A DNA stretch of 64,000 bases from a virus (taxonomy: Duplodnaviria > Caudoviricetes), in IMG/VR virus record IMGVR_UViG_3300043177_000122, positions 32,001-96,000 of that record; one strand, 5' to 3'. A program made the position numbers and the translations under genes. Every line of letters begins with the position of its first letter. Positions within the stretch are counted from its first letter, which is position 1. Below the pieces are notes generated by a model, which was not told the origin of the DNA, did no database searches, and saw nothing but the letters and a program-made list of their open reading frames with translations. This document shows, piece by piece, positions 34,070-62,490 of this stretch.

Positions 34070-34531
34070 TGTGGCTTTTATTTCAAAGCAAGAACAGATG
34101 CAATTAAATCTTGAGCAACTAAAAGTTGTGGCTGTTTAACTGGTGATTTGATTTCATCTGGAAATAAACTATCAAATAATTTGGGAGCCATTAATTTAGT
34201 AAGAAGGCACTACAAACATAATGCAAAGAAAAGGGATTTAATTTTCAAGTTATCAGAAAAAGAATTTGAAAATTTCATATTTGGGAATTGTCATTATTGT
34301 GGGGCTGAGCCCAAATTAGTGAAATTTGCTAGTAGCTCTGAAAATAGAAGAGATAAAGAGATTATCTATAATGGTATAGATAGGATTAATAATTCTGTAG
34401 GATATGTATTGTCTAATTGTGTTACATGCTGTTCAATTTGTAATACAGCTAAATCTGATCTTTCATTTGAAGAATTTAATGATTGGATAAAAAGATTAGT
34501 GAGATATAATGGCCAACAAAAAAGTTTCTAA
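34070..34531 (+). pseudogene. HNH-type homing endonuclease with a disrupted N-terminus
   Basis: KSCGC, CHYCG, NGIDRINNSVGY..SNCVTCCSICN; no open start upstream. Confidence 0.7.
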
Positions 34532-36998
34532 ATTTCCGCCTAAACGTCCAGACAATTCACATATAATTAAAGCAAGATCGAAACATGACTGGTCAGATTA
34601 TCAGAAAGCAATTTTTCAAGATATTGCAAAGGGGAAAGATCACACTGTTGTAATTGCTAGGGCTGGCAGTGGGAAAACAAGCACTATTGTTGAAGGTTTT
34701 AGATATATTCCAAAAGGAACGAAAACTCTCATGGTTGCTTTTAATAAAAGTATAGCCGAGGAGTTAAAACAACGAGCCGCATCTTATATTGATGTAATGA
34801 CTCTTCATTCTTTGGGATTCAGAGCTATTAAACAAAGTTTTGGAACTGATGTTATTCTAGAGAATGACAAATGTAATATGCTTATCTCCACACTAATTGG
34901 AGATGATCGGGATATGTGGGAAGTGAATCAGAGCATTGCAAAGTGTGTTTCTCTTTGTAAGGGTTTTCTTGTAGATACTCCATCTAAAGTTGGAGATTTG
35001 ATTGACAAGTTTGGAATCGAAATATTCGATTATTCTAGAGAGAAATTTACTGAATTAGTCCTCAAGACATTAGCTTTGTGCAAAGCAAAGAAAAATGTCA
35101 TTGATTTTGACGATATGATTTGGTTTCCCTTCGTTTATCGTTTAAACGTAGGGAAATTCGATGTTGTTTTTGTTGACGAAGCTCAGGATCTAAATCAGGC
35201 ACAAATTGCCATGGTGTTATCGGCTTGTAAAGTAGATGGTCGCATTATTGCAGTTGGAGACCCGGCGCAATGTGTTGATGAAAATACTATGGTAAATGTT
35301 GACGGAGGTTGGGCTTCCGTTAAAGATTGTAAAGTTGGACAATATATACTTTGCTATAATAATAGCAAATTAGATAGTAAAAAAATTATCAACAAAGTAA
35401 AATCTAATTGGGAATATGGTTATGAAATAACAACGTATTCTGGTAAGAAATTATTGATGTCCCCGAACCATAAGATTTGGGCGTCTGCACCAATGCTTGA
35501 CGAACAATATATTGTTTATTTGATGTATAGACCAGATTTAGGTTTTAGAGTAGGTAAAACTAATACGTGGAAGGATACAAATTATCCATTTGGTTTAAGA
35601 GCTAATTCTGAAAATGCAACCAAACTTTGGGTTCTTGATATTGCAAACTCTAATGAAGAAGCTCTGTTATTGGAAGAGCAGTATTCTTTAAGATATAAAA
35701 TTCCTACATCTGTATTTAATGGTGAACATAGAAATATCAATCAAGAAAGATTAAATACAATTTTTGCAGAGTTTGGAAAAAATGGACACTTTCTTCTTAA
35801 AGATAAAAATCTGCATTTTGCATACCCACATTGGATGGCTTCCTCTAATTCTAAAATCAATAGAAGAACTGTTAGGGTAAATGCTCATTCTAAAAAAGGA
35901 ACTCAAGTAACTTTGGAGTGGAAAGACGACGCTTTAGATAAAGTGTTTATGAAACATGGGGTTATCTTTTCTAAAGGCAAGAATTCAAGAATTAGAAAAT
36001 ACTTCTCTGATTATACTAGCGCCTTATCGTTTGCAGGAATGATTGCACAACTTTCTGGCGGAGAAGTTAACGAAAGATTATCGATTAATGATAATCCATA
36101 TTTGATTACCGCATCAGGTCTTCATGTTGGAATGAAAGTATATTCTTTACTTAAAAATCAACTTGTTGATGATATGATTATCAGTATAGATAAAAAATCC
36201 GGCTCATTTTATGATTTGGAAGTAGAAGAATCGGCCAATTTCATTGGTAATAATATTCTGAGCCACAATTCTATTTACCAGTTCCGAGGAGCTGATAGTG
36301 AGGCTATTCCAAACTTTATTGATAAGCTTAAAGCCAAAACTTTACCATTGTCCGTTACCTACCGCTGTCCGATCAAGGTGGTAGACCTAGCGAAGGAAAT
36401 TGTACCTGACATTGAGGCGGCCGAGAATGCCAAGGATGGGGTGGTAGAAGAGGTTCCAGCAGAACAATTTCTTAAATTGGTTAGGCCGGGGGACTTTGTG
36501 CTCTCTAGGACGAACGCCCCTTTGATTAAACACTGTATGGCTTTGCTAAAAGCAGGGGTACCAGCCAATATTCAAGGAAGAGATGTTGGCGCCAATCTAC
36601 AATATTTCATTAAAAAATCCAAATCAAAGACTATTGTTCAATTTACAGAATATGTAAATGCATGGAGAGAACAAGAAGTTAAGCGACTATTGGCTGAGAA
36701 AAAAGATCCAATTGCAACTATCGATAAAGCAGAATGTTTATTGAACCTCTGTGAAGGAACCCTTACTATTAAGGACCTAAAAGAGACAATAGAAAAGCTG
36801 TTCAACGATGTTAATGATACTGCTAAAGTTATTTTTTCAACAACACATAAAGCCAAAGGTTTGGAACGCGATAGAGTCTTTGTTCTCACCAACACCTACC
36901 GAAAAGGAGCCGGAGGAGAAGAAGACAACCTCTGGTATGTCGCGGTAACTCGTAGTAAATCTGAGTTGTACCTGGTAAAGAAATACTTGAAGCAATAA
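34509..36998 (+). CDS. UvrD/Rep-type SF1 helicase containing an intein
   Basis: ARAGSGKT, DEAQD, GDPAQ|SIYQFRGA, YRCP, THKAKGLE, YVAVTR. Confidence 0.93.
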   Translation: MANKKVSKFPPKRPDNSHIIKARSKHDWSDYQKAIFQDIAKGKDHTVVIARAGSGKTSTIVEGFRYIPKGTKTLMVAFNKSIAEELKQRAASYIDVMTLHSLGFRAIKQSFGTDVILENDKCNMLISTLIGDDRDMWEVNQSIAKCVSLCKGFLVDTPSKVGDLIDKFGIEIFDYSREKFTELVLKTLALCKAKKNVIDFDDMIWFPFVYRLNVGKFDVVFVDEAQDLNQAQIAMVLSACKVDGRIIAVGDPAQCVDENTMVNVDGGWASVKDCKVGQYILCYNNSKLDSKKIINKVKSNWEYGYEITTYSGKKLLMSPNHKIWASAPMLDEQYIVYLMYRPDLGFRVGKTNTWKDTNYPFGLRANSENATKLWVLDIANSNEEALLLEEQYSLRYKIPTSVFNGEHRNINQERLNTIFAEFGKNGHFLLKDKNLHFAYPHWMASSNSKINRRTVRVNAHSKKGTQVTLEWKDDALDKVFMKHGVIFSKGKNSRIRKYFSDYTSALSFAGMIAQLSGGEVNERLSINDNPYLITASGLHVGMKVYSLLKNQLVDDMIISIDKKSGSFYDLEVEESANFIGNNILSHNSIYQFRGADSEAIPNFIDKLKAKTLPLSVTYRCPIKVVDLAKEIVPDIEAAENAKDGVVEEVPAEQFLKLVRPGDFVLSRTNAPLIKHCMALLKAGVPANIQGRDVGANLQYFIKKSKSKTIVQFTEYVNAWREQEVKRLLAEKKDPIATIDKAECLLNLCEGTLTIKDLKETIEKLFNDVNDTAKVIFSTTHKAKGLERDRVFVLTNTYRKGAGGEEDNLWYVAVTRSKSELYLVKKYLKQ
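35271..36269 (+). mobile_element. Intein (333 aa) in helicase motif III
   Basis: C1 (CVDEN), block B SPNH, block F YDLEV, terminal HN followed by Ser+1; excision restores GDPAQSIYQFRGA. Confidence 0.93.
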
Positions 36999-60380: not shown

Positions 60381-60588
60381 AAGTTCTAATTGCTTGTTTA
60401 TTTCTATCGGGTTGTTTTCTCACAAATCATCCACAATACTGCCACACTGATGGCGATTGTTTAAACGGCCAATGGTGTCCAACAATTAGGGCGCCATCTC
60501 AACCACCTGATATTTGTAAGGGAAAAGCAATTATTAATCACAATATTTTAGCTGACTAACTGTCAATAAAGTGATATAAAATACGTAC

Positions 60589-60664
60589 GGCCCATTCGTC
60601 TAATGGTTTAGGACGGCAGCCTCTCACGTTGCTAATACGGGTTCGAACCCCGTATGGGTCGCCA
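60589..60664 (+). tRNA. tRNA-Glu(CTC)
   Basis: Cloverleaf, CCA. Confidence 0.93.
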
Positions 60665-60670
60665 GCATAC

Positions 60671-60745
60671 GCCTCTGTAGTCTAAGGGATAGGCACTCGC
60701 CTTCTAAGCGATTTAATGTAGGTTCGAATCCTACCAGAGGTGCCA
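60671..60745 (+). tRNA. tRNA-Arg(TCT)
   Basis: Cloverleaf, CCA. Confidence 0.9.
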
Positions 60746-60758
60746 AGTAAGTGTTTAT

Positions 60759-60834
60759 GCGTCTGTAATTCAATGGATAGAAATTTTGCCTTCTAAGCAA
60801 AAAGTTTGGGGTTCGAGTCCCTCCAGACGTGCCA
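60759..60834 (+). tRNA. tRNA-Arg(TCT), second copy
   Basis: Cloverleaf, CCA. Confidence 0.92.
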
Positions 60835-60838
60835 AAAT

Positions 60839-60922
60839 GTTACTGTAACCTAATGGAGAGGTATCGGTCTACGAAACCGAAGCGCAAGCTAAATGCAGGT
60901 TCGAATCCTGCCAGTGACGCCA
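60839..60922 (+). tRNA. tRNA-Arg(ACG) with a 14-nt hairpin variable arm
   Basis: Loop CT-ACG-AA; variable region AGC-GCAA-GCT-AAAT; A20; CCA. Confidence 0.88.
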
Positions 60923-60925
60923 AAT

Positions 60926-61001
60926 GGGTCTGTAGCTCAATGGATAGAGCACTCCGCTACGAACGGAACGGTTGAAGGTTCAACTCCTTTCAGACCCGCC
61001 A
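60926..61001 (+). tRNA. tRNA-Arg(ACG)
   Basis: Cloverleaf, CCA. Confidence 0.93.
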
Positions 61002-61006
61002 ATTAT

Positions 61007-61082
61007 GTCTCCATAACTCAATGGATAGAGTACTTCGCTTCGAACGAAGAAGTTGTAGGTTCAAGTCCTACTGGAGATGCCA
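61007..61082 (+). tRNA. tRNA-Arg(TCG)
   Basis: Cloverleaf, CCA. Confidence 0.93.
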
Positions 61083-61530
61083 TAACACCGAAAGGTGCTA
61101 TTTTTGTTTTTGGAGTATGCAATGGAACTACACGATATTTGCTCTGGCTGCAGCCGACACCTAAGTGTCTGTATGTGTTGTGTGTCTATTGGCCCAGAAG
61201 GGGCAACTCGTTCCAAACCTAATCCAACAAACCTAGCCGGCAAACTAAAAATTATTACCAATAATTCAAAAATGGAACATATTAAAGTTCAAACCCAACG
61301 CCTAGCTGATCAGCTTGTCTGGCGGGCCACCCAAGCCGCCAAACAAGGAAACTTTTCAATTAGTTTATGGTTAAGTGATTTAGGTATCACAAAAGAAGCT
61401 GCTGAATTGGTAGCAAAAGAGTTGGAGCAAGATGGCTTCAAATGTACCATCAGCAACGAAATCACAGCGCATTATTCTAATACGGATTATGACACTGATG
61501 ATCTTTTGTTAATAAGTTGGGAATAATAAA

Positions 61531-62490
61531 ATGAGAATTCTGTCGGGTATACAACCGTCAGGAACAATTCACATCGGCAACTATTTTGGAATGATCAAGC
61601 CCTTGGTCGATTTACAAGGTAAGGGAGAAGTGTATTGTTTCCTTGCGGATTATCATTCAATGACATCATTGTTTGATGCAAAAGAACGTAAAGCAAATTC
61701 AATTGAAGCAGCAACTACACTGCTAGCGTGTGGCATGGATCCTAAAACTGTTTTGTTTCGACAGTCAGATAGTCAGTCAGTGACTGAGCTAGCATGGATG
61801 CTTTCTACTGTAACTCCAATGGGCCTTTTAGAAAGGTGTCATAGTTACAAAGATAAAACTTCTAAAGGCATCCCAACCAATCATGGTTTGTTTGCTTATC
61901 CTGTTTTGATGGCGGCTGATATCCTACTATACCAATCTAATTTGGTACCAGTAGGAAAAGATCAACTTCAGCATTTGGAAGTGACGCGAGATATTGCCGT
62001 CAAGTTCAATACTACGTATGGGGAAATATTTACACTCCCCGAGCCCTATATTCAAGAAGCGGTAGCAACTGTTCCTGGAACTGATGGACAGAAGATGTCT
62101 AAAAGTAATGGTAACACTATCGAAATCTTTGGAGATGAAAAAGTTCTTAAGAAAAAGATAATGTCTATTGTGATGGATAGCCGCTCGCTGGCCACGCCAA
62201 AACCAGATGCAGATAAGAATATTGCAATTCAACTTCTAAAATTAGTAGCTCCGATGAATGTTGCTGAAGAATATGAAATGGAATTGCGAGATGGCTATCT
62301 TGGTTATGGTCAGCTTAAGAATGTTCTATTCGAACAATATTTTAGTTATTTTGAGAAACCAAGAGCATTGTATCAGGAATTGAAGAAGAATCCGGACTAT
62401 GTAGAGCAAATTCTTCAAGAAGGTGCAGAACATGCCCGCTATCAAGCCCATCGTACGATGGAAAAAGTAAGAGAAGTAGTGGGTTTATGA
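61531..62490 (+). CDS. trpS: Tryptophanyl-tRNA synthetase
   Basis: SGIQPSG..HIGN, YPVLMAADIL, VPVGKDQ.QH.E.TRD, KMSKS. Confidence 0.97.
   Translation: MRILSGIQPSGTIHIGNYFGMIKPLVDLQGKGEVYCFLADYHSMTSLFDAKERKANSIEAATTLLACGMDPKTVLFRQSDSQSVTELAWMLSTVTPMGLLERCHSYKDKTSKGIPTNHGLFAYPVLMAADILLYQSNLVPVGKDQLQHLEVTRDIAVKFNTTYGEIFTLPEPYIQEAVATVPGTDGQKMSKSNGNTIEIFGDEKVLKKKIMSIVMDSRSLATPKPDADKNIAIQLLKLVAPMNVAEEYEMELRDGYLGYGQLKNVLFEQYFSYFEKPRALYQELKKNPDYVEQILQEGAEHARYQAHRTMEKVREVVGL

What the first reader, a model, noticed from the sequence alone, without database searches (positions are those of the whole stretch)
60839..60922. tRNA-Arg(ACG) with a class II-like variable arm
Seen: fully paired stems, A20 and CCA, but a 14-nt variable region forming AGC-GCAA-GCT (GNRA tetraloop). 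The adjacent Arg(ACG) copy has a normal short loop. Established: long variable arms are normal for bacterial Leu, Ser, Tyr and Sec tRNAs, not Arg. Inference: the stable hairpin looks selected; it may shield the tRNA from host nucleases or change which synthetase charges it (SerRS recognises long arms, and G73 is present).
Basis: partly seen in the sequence, partly recalled or inferred. Interest (0 to 1): 0.55.

Follow-up and report, generated by a model that had tools for sequence, protein, structure and literature searches.

The report
Phage arginine tRNA with extra hairpin
A giant uncultured phage carries a second arginine tRNA with a small extra hairpin of the kind textbooks reserve for Leu, Ser and Tyr tRNAs; it most likely still carries arginine, and the add-on recurs in many phages but hardly ever in bacteria.

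Summary
Window 60839-60922 is a high-scoring 84-nt tRNA-Arg(ACG) with a 14-nt variable region, AGC-GCAA-GCU plus AAAU. A normal 76-nt Arg(ACG) lies 3 nt downstream. The host genome is a 359-kb phage with 57 tRNA genes.

The gene recurs 83/84 identical in a related phage, and again in a soil-metagenome contig. Every difference keeps an acceptor-stem pair and the hairpin never changes.

All arginine marks are present: A20, C35, G36, G73. The serine marks (G2-C71, an 18-nt arm) and the Leu/Tyr mark (A73) are missing, and the phage encodes no ArgRS, SerRS or LeuRS. A synthetase switch is therefore unlikely.

The tRNA is not alone:
- In five related phages, 11 of 13 long-armed class-I tRNAs sit beside a normal copy with the same anticodon.
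- In a motif scan, 63 of 92 viral tRNAs carrying such a hairpin had non-Leu/Ser/Tyr anticodons, against 2 of 107 in cellular genomes.

Best reading: a working back-up arginine decoder with a selected, phage-typical add-on hairpin. Its purpose is unproven; escape from tRNA-attacking defences is my leading guess. I found no paper on this. This scan has already noted the same design on other phage DNA (Asn, Cys, initiator Met).

The parts
60839..60922 (+). tRNA-Arg(ACG), 84 nt, with a class-I core plus a variable-region hairpin; G73 at 60919, encoded CCA at 60920-60922
   Evidence: ARAGORN; Rfam RF00005 56.9 bits
60871..60873 (+). Anticodon ACG in loop CUACGAA (60869-60875). After the usual A34-to-I editing it would read CGU/CGC/CGA (the editing is inferred).
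   Evidence: CGT+CGC+CGA make up 50% of the Arg codons in 221 ORFs.
60881..60894 (+). 14-nt variable region, AGCGCAAGCTAAAT
60881..60890 (+). Hairpin AGC-GCAA-GCU: 3 bp capped by a GNRA tetraloop, followed by the 4-nt linker AAAU (60891-60894), whose last base can form the A15-U48 pair
   Evidence: Kept in the minimum-energy fold. Identical in G001 and in a soil contig.
60852..60858 (+). D loop AAUGGAG with A20 at 60857, the main bacterial ArgRS determinant
   Evidence: Rfam alignment; PMC9976931 passages
60926..61001 (+). Normal-length second tRNA-Arg(ACG), 76 nt, variable loop CGGTT; only 68% identical to the long copy's core
60589..61082 (+). Tight tRNA array Glu(CTC)-Arg(TCT)-Arg(TCT)-Arg(ACG, long)-Arg(ACG)-Arg(TCG), with 3-13 nt spacers; presumably one transcript
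   Evidence: The same order is seen in relative G001.
61087..61110 (+). Terminator-like hairpin CACC-GAAA-GGUG followed by a T-rich tail, just after the array. It is below the scan tool's 5-bp threshold.
   Evidence: Read; not listed. Relatives carry a different hairpin plus T-run at the same place (loose ends after 61082).

Best explanation
This is a working, extra arginine tRNA of a huge phage. It keeps the class-I core and every arginine identity mark. It is therefore most likely charged with arginine by the host's ArgRS, since the phage encodes none. After the usual A34-to-I editing it would read CGU/CGC/CGA, which are half of the phage's arginine codons.

The 9-10 nt GNRA-capped hairpin sits where class-II tRNAs carry their arm, leaves the core contacts in place, and points away from class-I synthetases. 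It is an add-on typical of phage tRNAs and is maintained by selection. It gives the phage a second Arg(ACG) decoder that is shaped differently from the ordinary copy next to it.

My leading guess for the benefit is that the protruding arm keeps a tRNA-targeting host factor, such as an immune nuclease or toxin, from binding. One decoder would then survive an attack.

Shown: the gene, its fold, its conservation, its identity marks, and the phage-wide recurrence of the design. Inferred: expression, arginylation, I34 editing, and the protective role. My odds are about 0.8 that it is a functional Arg tRNA, about 0.6 that the hairpin is selected rather than merely tolerated, and about 0.35 that the benefit is defence evasion.
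For: Gene and fold.

Arginine marks:
- A20, C35/G36 and G73 match the Arg identity set in PMC9976931.
- With the hairpin removed, the nearest tRNAs among 271 from five phages are Arg tRNAs. After the G001 orthologue, 7 of the next 9 are Arg, at 70-73% identity.

No phage synthetase for it:
- Pfam on all 223 ORFs of at least 180 aa found only PheRS-, TrpRS- and TyrRS-type enzymes.
- Six-frame searches for the ArgRS core PF00750, the class-IIa core PF00587 and the class-Ia core PF00133 gave 0 hits, with controls positive in 14 of 14 genomes.

Conservation:
- The copy in G001 is 83/84 identical, and its one change turns U3.G70 into C3-G70.
- A soil-metagenome contig covers 60667-60918 with no indel in the arm. 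Its changes at 60841 and 60843 give C3-G70 and U5.G68.
- The flanking normal Arg(ACG) copies of the window and G001 differ far more, roughly 70% identical (estimated by eye from the alignment; not computed).

Back-up pattern: 11 of 13 long-armed class-I tRNAs in five related phages coexist with a normal-length tRNA of the same anticodon.

Recurrence:
- An unbiased scan for long-armed Arg(ACG) in viral contigs gave 18 tRNAs (14 unique) among 100 loci.
- Of 13 unique arms tested, 12 from that scan (one dubious 96-nt call left out) plus the one metagenome hit, 6 are GNRA-capped hairpins with at least 3 bp, against 0.17 expected from shuffles. The stems differ.
- One pair of arms shows a compensatory C-G to G-C change (L304/L313 versus L368).

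Phage enrichment: 63 of 92 motif-bearing tRNAs in viral contigs have non-Leu/Ser/Tyr anticodons, against 2 of 107 in cellular genomes (Fisher p 2e-26).

Arms-race context:
- The phage carries PNKP, two RNA ligases, RlaP, a Thg1-like enzyme and CCA-adding enzymes.
- Phage tRNAs are known to rescue cells from tRNA nucleases (PMC12445682 and PMC10264068, passages and abstract).
- A toxin is known to choose its substrates by the variable arm (MenT3, PMC11162799 abstract).
Against: - There are no RNA, charging or modification data. The one RNA-library contig that touched the region is another organism's 77-nt tRNA.
- Only three copies of this exact gene are known and they are nearly identical, so the invariance of 14 nt is weak. 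There is no covariation inside this hairpin.
- The hairpin alone is thermodynamically modest.
- Pairing with a normal copy fits relaxed constraint on a redundant gene just as well as it fits bet-hedging.
- A structured insert may be selected only because an unstructured one would harm folding.
- No nuclease is known to be blocked by a variable arm. Published phage-tRNA escapes map to the anticodon arm (PMC10264068, PMC12445682).
The 63/92 and 2/107 are samples, and the motif was fixed by my pattern.
Confidence: 0.45

Rival explanations
1. Tolerated, functionally neutral insertion. The tRNA works as an ordinary Arg decoder. The hairpin arose by insertion in a redundant copy and persists because a compact GNRA hairpin at the class-II arm position does no harm.
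For: - A normal Arg(ACG) lies 3 nt away, and 11 of 13 such tRNAs in the clade have a normal twin, so constraint is relaxed.
- Three relatives (G002, G003, G004) do without the long copy.
- The same genome holds an obvious slip product, a Pro(TGG) whose 'arm' is a 10-nt tandem duplication of the T arm.
- Some long arms are unstructured (L330, L296).
Against: - GNRA-capped hairpins are far commoner among the arms than shuffles predict: 6 of 13 against 0.17 expected.
- The design is rare in cellular genomes, which also have redundant tRNA copies: 2 of 107 against 63 of 92.
- The long copy is the best conserved tRNA of its array between the window and G001.
Confidence: 0.3
2. Handle or decoy. The hairpin is a tag bound by a phage-encoded protein (processing, repair, modification or sequestration), or the tRNA acts as bait for a host factor rather than as a decoder.
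For: - The phage encodes many RNA-handling proteins: Ro60/TROVE, RlaP, PNKP, RNA ligases, a Thg1-like enzyme, CCA enzymes and PIN-PhoH.
- Hairpin tags in the variable arm can recruit proteins to otherwise active tRNAs (PMC7590224, abstract and passages).
- The same AGC-GNAA-GCU module appears on Asn (this genome), on Cys (G005) and on many isotypes elsewhere.
Against: - Only 4 of 57 tRNAs in this genome have a long arm, and the arms differ in sequence across the clade. That is not what a shared protein tag predicts.
- The phage's own Leu and Ser arms are also GNRA-capped, so the cap is generic.
- No partner protein was identified.
Confidence: 0.12
3. Identity switch. The long arm makes SerRS, or LeuRS/TyrRS, charge this tRNA, so CGN codons would be partly read as Ser or Leu.
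For: - The arm is as long as this phage's tRNA-Leu arms and G73 is compatible with SerRS.
- Precedents exist: nematode nev-tRNAs are leucylated (PMC3333845, abstract), and allo-tRNAs with a long arm and G73/U73 are serylated (PMC5389517, passages).
Against: - U2-A71 replaces the G2-C71 that is conserved in bacterial tRNA-Ser and in all 4 phage tRNA-Ser. The arm is 14 nt with 3 bp, against 18 nt with 5-6 bp (PMC9976931).
- G73 blocks LeuRS and TyrRS, and A73 is essential for leucylation.
- The D arm is class-I, and the full Arg set A20/C35/G36/G73 is present.
- Across phages, hairpin-bearing tRNAs carry the discriminator of their anticodon's amino acid: Cys U73 in 3 of 3, Met A73 in 3 of 3, Asn G73 in 3 of 3. 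Only 6 of 25 have G73.
Confidence: 0.04
4. Decaying pseudogene: a duplicate damaged by an insertion and on its way out.
For: It is redundant with its neighbour and absent from three relatives.
Against: - It scores as well as its neighbours (56.9 bits against 54.4-67.9).
- All stems are intact, and its three known substitutions all preserve pairing.
- It is 98.8% identical between phages whose TrpRS proteins are 84% identical.
Confidence: 0.04

Closest known systems
Canonical bacterial and phage class-I tRNA-Arg(ACG/ICG), e.g. E. coli argQVYZ-type tRNA (named from memory)
   Same: 7/5 acceptor-T branch, 4-bp D stem, A20, loop CUACGAA, C35 G36, G73, encoded CCA. The anticodon arm is identical to the normal Arg(ACG) of relatives G002-G004.
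   Different: The variable region is 14 nt with a hairpin instead of 4-5 nt.
Class-II tRNAs (bacterial Leu, Ser, Tyr)
   Same: A stem-loop arm at the same place, of the same size and with the same GNRA cap as this phage's tRNA-Leu arms.
   Different: Class-I D arm, Arg anticodon, G73 instead of A73 (Leu/Tyr), and no G2-C71 or long stem (Ser).
Phage class-I-anticodon tRNAs with a variable-arm hairpin. This is an informal group seen here and in earlier notes of this scan on Asn, Cys, initiator Met and a 344-kb phage. I found no paper on it.
   Same: Phage-encoded, a short and often GNRA-capped hairpin, identity marks of the anticodon's amino acid, and usually a normal twin in the same genome.
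   Different: Many members found have class-II-like D arms (3-bp stem, large loop) and may be rebuilt from Leu/Ser/Tyr genes. This Arg tRNA, like L286 and L295, is a class-I body with a bolt-on hairpin.
Allo-tRNAs (Mukai et al. 2017, PMC5389517)
   Same: Long variable arm combined with non-Ser/Leu anticodons, found in metagenomes. G73 or U73 is common.
   Different: Allo-tRNAs have an 8/4 or 9/3 acceptor-T branch, a tRNA-Sec-like D arm and Ser (or Ala) identity. This tRNA is 7/5 with Arg identity marks.
Nematode nev-tRNAs (PMC3333845) and other eukaryotic non-canonical V-arm tRNAs
   Same: Class-II-type arm on tRNAs whose anticodons are not Leu or Ser.
   Different: They are eukaryotic, full class-II bodies, and leucylated in vitro. 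Here the identity marks argue for cognate charging.
Engineered aptamer-tagged tRNAs (PMC7590224)
   Same: A small hairpin at the tip or site of the variable arm is compatible with translation.
   Different: They are synthetic and built on an allo-tRNA chassis. V-loop Spinach inserts in E. coli tRNAs were only marginally active (passage).

Membership tests
tRNA (Rfam RF00005) | Cloverleaf scoring above the gathering threshold | tested here: met
   56.9 bits against 29, full model 1-71, no flagged mispairs; ARAGORN call
Bacterial-type tRNA-Arg | A20 in the D loop | tested here: met
   D loop AAUGGAG aligned to the model gives A20; determinant per PMC9976931
Bacterial-type tRNA-Arg | C35 with G36 or U36, and A/G73 | tested here: met
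   Anticodon ACG, discriminator G
Bacterial-type tRNA-Arg | Class-I variable loop of 4-5 nt | tested here: not met
   14 nt
Bacterial-type tRNA-Arg | Charged with arginine by ArgRS | not testable with these tools
   Needs an aminoacylation assay. No phage ArgRS was found.
Class-II tRNA (Leu/Ser/Tyr) | Long variable arm with a stem-loop | tested here: met
   3 bp plus GCAA, 14 nt; the phage's Leu arms are 13-16 nt
Class-II tRNA (Leu/Ser/Tyr) | Class-II D arm (3-bp stem, enlarged loop) | tested here: not met
   4-bp D stem and 7-nt loop
tRNA-Ser identity | G1-C72 and G2-C71 plus a long arm | tested here: not met
   U2-A71. All 4 phage tRNA-Ser have GGA/UCC and 18-nt arms; PMC9976931.
tRNA-Leu / tRNA-Tyr identity | A73 | tested here: not met
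   G73. All 5 phage tRNA-Leu and the tRNA-Tyr have A73.
Allo-tRNA | 8/4 or 9/3 acceptor-T branch | tested here: not met
   7-bp acceptor and 5-bp T stem
Phage class-I tRNAs with a variable-arm hairpin (informal) | Phage-encoded, non-Leu/Ser/Tyr anticodon, structured arm of at least 9 nt | tested here: met
   (terminase, baseplate)
Phage class-I tRNAs with a variable-arm hairpin (informal) | Normal-length twin with the same anticodon in the same genome | tested here: met
   60926-61001; 11 of 13 in the clade

The most novel reading that the evidence does not exclude
Variable-arm hairpins on class-I tRNAs are a widespread, phage-specific device. Phages bolt a small, stable arm onto a second copy of a heavily used decoder. 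This would give them isodecoders that tRNA-targeting immune nucleases or toxins (or the phage's own host-tRNA-degrading enzymes) cannot bind, opening a second axis of the phage-host tRNA arms race beside the known anticodon-arm mutations.
Probability: 0.3. Interest if true: 0.8.

Novelty: new variant of a known kind. Interest (0 to 1): 0.55.

Why it matters
Textbooks treat a long variable arm as the hallmark of Leu, Ser, Tyr and Sec tRNAs in bacteria. Here it sits on an arginine tRNA that keeps its arginine marks. The same add-on turns up on Lys, Trp, Gln, Asn, Cys, Thr, Met, His and Arg tRNAs of many phages, but almost never in sampled cellular genomes.

If the arm protects tRNAs from immune nucleases, it adds a new and easily testable mechanism to the fast-moving field of tRNA-targeting phage defence. 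It would also give natural designs for nuclease-resistant or orthogonal tRNAs. If the arm is neutral, it shows how much extra structure the translation machinery tolerates. It also warns annotators that arm length alone does not give the isotype.

Tried and rejected
- **Deposited phages.** Blastn against 50,697 records found no close relative of the array, none of the tRNA itself, and none of a hairpin-bearing Met tRNA used to look for a cultured example.
- **Exact 25-mer across the arm.** It found only G001 in viral contigs. The same anticodon arm with any 9-22 nt variable region found G001 again, and in metagenome contigs found one unrelated Arg(ACG) with an unstructured 10-nt region.
- **Arg-specific hairpin scan**. 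Of 12 loci, only 3 were Arg tRNAs (G001, L286, L295). Five were tRNA-Ser(GCU) and four gave no tRNA call for the match.
- **Sequencing runs.** Among the four runs laid, no RNA run covers this tRNA. Parts of the region without cover in runs X3 and X4 say nothing.
- **Recoding.** Two tRNA(CTA) genes suggested that TAG is read as sense. However, the standard code already gives 87% coverage by ORFs of at least 100 aa, and reading TAG as sense adds little. I dropped the idea.
- **Weak Rfam hits** over the region (YrlA 26.7 bits against 69, Plastid-ycf2, SpF41) are tRNA look-alike noise.
- **ORF 60893-61222** (109 aa) overlaps four tRNA genes and is spurious.
- **Nuclease-target test.** I considered asking whether hairpin-bearing isotypes match known nuclease targets, but gave it up. 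Known targets cover most isotypes, so any overlap would be meaningless.

Full report
**What is there**

The window is bases 32001-96000 of a single 358,993-bp contig with 38% G+C. The contig carries a gpA-type terminase, a baseplate-J protein, DnaE, RecA, a tubulin-like protein and many homing-endonuclease genes, so it is a huge tailed phage. IMG/VR classes it as linear and CheckV estimates it 83% complete.

ARAGORN finds 57 tRNA genes in the genome and 25 in the window. The flagged gene at 60839-60922 is called tRNA-Arg(ACG), 84 nt. Rfam's tRNA model gives 56.9 bits against a threshold of 29, over its full length and with no mispaired stem position. It places an 11-nt insertion in the variable region.

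Read directly:
- The acceptor stem has 7 pairs including U3.G70.
- The D stem has 4 bp with loop AAUGGAG, which gives A20.
- The anticodon arm is UCGGU-CUACGAA-ACCGA.
- The variable region is AGCGCAAGCUAAAU (60881-60894), the T arm is 5+7+5, the discriminator is G73 and CCA is encoded.

Three nucleotides downstream lies a 76-nt Arg(ACG) with a 5-nt variable loop.

**Is the hairpin more than chance?**

By energy alone, only weakly. The minimum-energy fold keeps AGC/GCU with the GCAA loop (z -2.96 for the whole tRNA). The isolated hairpin is only -2.7 kcal/mol (z -1.6; 10 of 200 dinucleotide shuffles fold as well; 1.4% of mononucleotide shuffles).

The comparative evidence carries the case:
- Using the TrpRS gene 450 nt downstream as a probe, I fetched six related viral contigs.
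- The closest, G001 (TrpRS 84% identical), has the same array and the same 84-nt tRNA. It is 83/84 identical, and the one change turns U3.G70 into C3-G70.
- A 270-nt contig of a soil metagenome (run X7) covers 60667-60918 without any indel in the arm. It differs inside this tRNA only at 60841 and 60843, giving C3-G70 and U5.G68.
- So all three known substitutions keep a stem pair, and none touches the 14-nt region.
- Between the window and G001 this tRNA is the best conserved of the array. The normal Arg(ACG) beside it is only about 70% identical (estimated by eye from the alignment; not computed), and the last tRNA has been replaced.
- Three other relatives (G002, G003, G004; TrpRS 77-80%) have a single, normal-length Arg(ACG) with the same anticodon arm. 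The long gene is therefore an extra copy carrying a 9-10 nt insert.

**Which amino acid?**

The tRNA has A20, C35, G36 and G73, which a review gives as the arginine set, with A20 the main determinant for E. coli ArgRS (PMC9976931, passages). With the hairpin removed, its nearest tRNAs among 271 from five phages are Arg tRNAs, at 70-73% identity.

- G73 is the ordinary discriminator here, present in 5 of the genome's 7 Arg tRNAs.
- All four phage tRNA-Ser have G1-G2-A3/U70-C71-C72 and 18-nt arms with 5-6 bp, whereas this tRNA has U2-A71 and a 3-bp arm.
- G1-C72 and G2-C71 are described as absolutely conserved in most bacterial tRNA-Ser.

In size the arm resembles this phage's tRNA-Leu arms (13-16 nt, 3-4 bp plus GNRA). 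However, leucylation needs A73, and G73 is listed as an anti-determinant against LeuRS and TyrRS.

The phage has no synthetase of its own for any of these:
- Pfam on all 223 ORFs of at least 180 aa shows only PheRS-, TrpRS- and TyrRS-type enzymes.
- Six-frame searches for the ArgRS, class-IIa and class-Ia cores are empty, with positive controls in 14 of 14 genomes.
- The record may be incomplete, so absence is not proven.

From memory, not from a call: class-I synthetases such as ArgRS approach tRNA from the side opposite the variable loop. If so, an arm there should be tolerated.

CGT, CGC and CGA, the codons an I34 Arg tRNA reads, are 50% of the arginine codons in 221 ORFs. AGA is 38%, and its decoder UCU is also present twice. 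The duplicated decoders thus match demand.

**It is one of many**

The same genome has two other structured long arms on class-I anticodons:
- Asn(GUU), 88 nt, with arm AAGC-GAAA-GCUU.
- Ile(UAU), 94 nt.

It also has a Pro(UGG) whose apparent arm is just a 10-nt tandem duplication of the T arm.

Across five related phages (271 tRNAs in the regions I fetched) I count 13 class-I-anticodon tRNAs of at least 80 nt with variable regions of at least 9 nt, leaving out one with an unreadable anticodon. Eleven of them coexist with a normal-length tRNA of the same anticodon. The exceptions are the two Ile(UAU). The Asn copies of G001 and G002 differ by a compensatory C-G to U-A change in the anticodon stem while sharing an identical arm, so these genes evolve like working tRNAs.

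A pattern for the AGC-GNAA-GCU hairpin just before a T arm hit at least 116 viral stretches and at least 121 stretches of cellular genomes.
- Viral sample: 92 tRNAs carry the motif. Of these, 63 (45 unique) have non-Leu/Ser/Tyr anticodons: Lys 13, Trp 11, Gln 8, Cys 8, Thr 6, Asn 5, Met 5, Arg 3, His 2, Glu 1, Gly 1.
- Cellular sample: 107 tRNAs carry the motif, and 105 are Leu, Ser or Tyr. The two exceptions are a doubtful 98-nt archaeal call and one Val.
- Fisher p is 2e-26, or 5e-20 on unique sequences.

Discriminators follow the anticodon's amino acid (Cys U73 in 3 of 3, Met A73 in 3 of 3, Asn G73 in 3 of 3). Only 6 of 25 CCA-ending unique tRNAs have G73, so a general serine identity is not credible. 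The motif itself was fixed by my pattern, so its sameness across hits means nothing.

To remove that bias I scanned for any Arg(ACG) loop followed 17-30 nt later by a T arm.
- 100 loci gave 18 long-armed Arg(ACG) tRNAs, 14 of them unique.
- Their stems differ (GCGC/GCGC, GGC/GCC, GCC/GGC, CUAUC/GGUAG and others).
- Of 13 unique arms tested, 12 from this scan (a dubious 96-nt call left out) plus the one metagenome hit, 6 are hairpins of at least 3 bp capped by GNRA, against 0.17 expected from shuffles.
- L304/L313 and L368 differ by a compensatory C-G to G-C change.
- Two other phage Arg tRNAs, with anticodons CCU and UCU, carry nearly the same module as the target, followed by a 3-nt linker.

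**What the hairpin does**

This part is inference. The insert sits where class-II arms emerge, and the linker AAAU can still supply the core contacts (A15-U48). The tRNA should therefore fold as a normal L shape with a small protruding arm.

I favour a selected add-on that makes the second copy structurally distinct. My leading guess is that it blocks a tRNA-targeting host factor. The context fits:
- The phage carries PNKP, two RNA ligases, RlaP, a Thg1-like enzyme and CCA-adding enzymes, a tRNA-repair kit.
- Phage tRNAs are documented to resist and rescue from immune tRNA nucleases. So far this is through anticodon-arm changes (PMC10264068 abstract; PMC12445682 passages).
- A toxin that selects tRNAs by their variable arm is known (MenT3, PMC11162799 abstract).

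Against this reading:
- No nuclease is known to be blocked by such an arm.
- A twin copy also means relaxed constraint.
- A compact hairpin may simply be the only insert that does no harm.

I put the neutral reading at 0.3, a protein handle or decoy at 0.12, and an identity switch and a pseudogene at 0.04 each.

**Comparison and novelty**

The tRNA fails the defining test of allo-tRNAs, an 8/4 or 9/3 acceptor-T branch (PMC5389517, passages). It is also unlike the nematode nev-tRNAs, which are full class-II bodies leucylated in vitro (PMC3333845, abstract). It meets every test of a bacterial-type tRNA-Arg except loop length.

Seven literature searches and a 2020 review of non-canonical tRNAs, which has no occurrence of 'phage' or 'virus' (PMC7609411, term search), gave no description of phage class-I tRNAs with variable-arm hairpins. 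Subscription journals, and a 2025 Trends in Microbiology review that I saw only cited in a reference list, were not searchable.

This scan itself has reported the design before on other phage DNA: Asn, Cys, initiator Met, and nine such tRNAs in a 344-kb phage, 'usually paired with a normal copy'. My results agree with those notes and add three things: an Arg case, a phage-versus-cell contrast, and a GNRA enrichment test.

**Verdict**

The tRNA is real and conserved, almost certainly still an arginine tRNA, and a member of a phage-typical but unpublished design. The purpose of the arm remains open.

Noticed in passing
L002:3841-3928 (genome 21841-21928) and L002:5469-5562 (genome 23469-23562): Two further long-armed class-I tRNAs in the same genome: Asn(GUU), 88 nt, with arm AAGC-GAAA-GCUU, and Ile(UAU), 94 nt, with a 23-nt arm. 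The Ile arm's stem covaries with the copy in G002 (GCU/GGC against GGA/UCC).
   Followed up: partly
L002:3175-3261 (genome 21175-21261): In Pro(UGG), 87 nt, the apparent long arm is a 10-nt tandem duplication of the 5' half of the T arm (ATCAGTTCGA twice). It is probably a replication slip or a damaged copy. A normal 77-nt Pro(UGG) exists.
   Followed up: no
L002:5566-5642 (genome 23566-23642); also L031:5090-5166, L037:2050-2126, L041:1878-1954, L045:2566-3271: The converse oddity: Leu-anticodon tRNAs (UAA, CAG, UAG, CAA) of 73-77 nt with a short class-I variable loop and A73, often the only tRNA with that anticodon in the phage. Type-I tRNA-Leu is published for Streptomyces (PMC6614811, listing only).
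   Followed up: partly
L009:353-509 (genome 144353-144509): Two adjacent tRNAs with anticodon CUA (amber-reading). The standard code nevertheless already gives 87% ORF coverage, so TAG is not globally reassigned.
   Followed up: partly
window 60580-61100 against L021:4900-5570: The tRNA array is a mosaic. Between two phages, Glu(CUC), Arg(UCU) no. 2 and the long Arg(ACG) are 96-99% identical, while Arg(UCU) no. 1 and the normal Arg(ACG) are about 70-78% identical (by eye, not computed) and the last tRNA is replaced. This suggests that single tRNA cassettes are swapped.
   Followed up: partly
Whole genome, for example L007:8456-9394, L007:11400-12695, L007:1111-2232, L008:13433-14221, L013:15522-16763, L001:13335-14957: A large tRNA repair and handling kit: PNKP, an Rnl1-type RNA ligase, RlaP, a Thg1-like enzyme, CCA-adding enzymes and Ro60/TROVE. 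There are also EF-Ts, IF3, trigger factor, DnaJ and two ClpP genes, plus PheRS, TrpRS (window 61531-62490) and TyrRS (window 63570 onward).
   Followed up: no
window 34509-36995 (L004:12509-14995): The UvrD-type helicase ORF of 829 aa has an Intein_splicing match (E 1e-9) between its helicase halves, so it probably holds an intein.
   Followed up: no
L045:14534-14619 (record G005): ARAGORN reports an 86-nt tRNA with a four-base anticodon call (agga) and a 16-nt variable region. It is either a quadruplet-type or odd-loop tRNA, or a miscall.
   Followed up: no
window 61087-61110: A terminator-like CACC-GAAA-GGUG hairpin with a T-rich tail closes the tRNA array. Relatives seen in runs X3 and X4 have a different hairpin plus T-run at the same spot.
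   Followed up: partly
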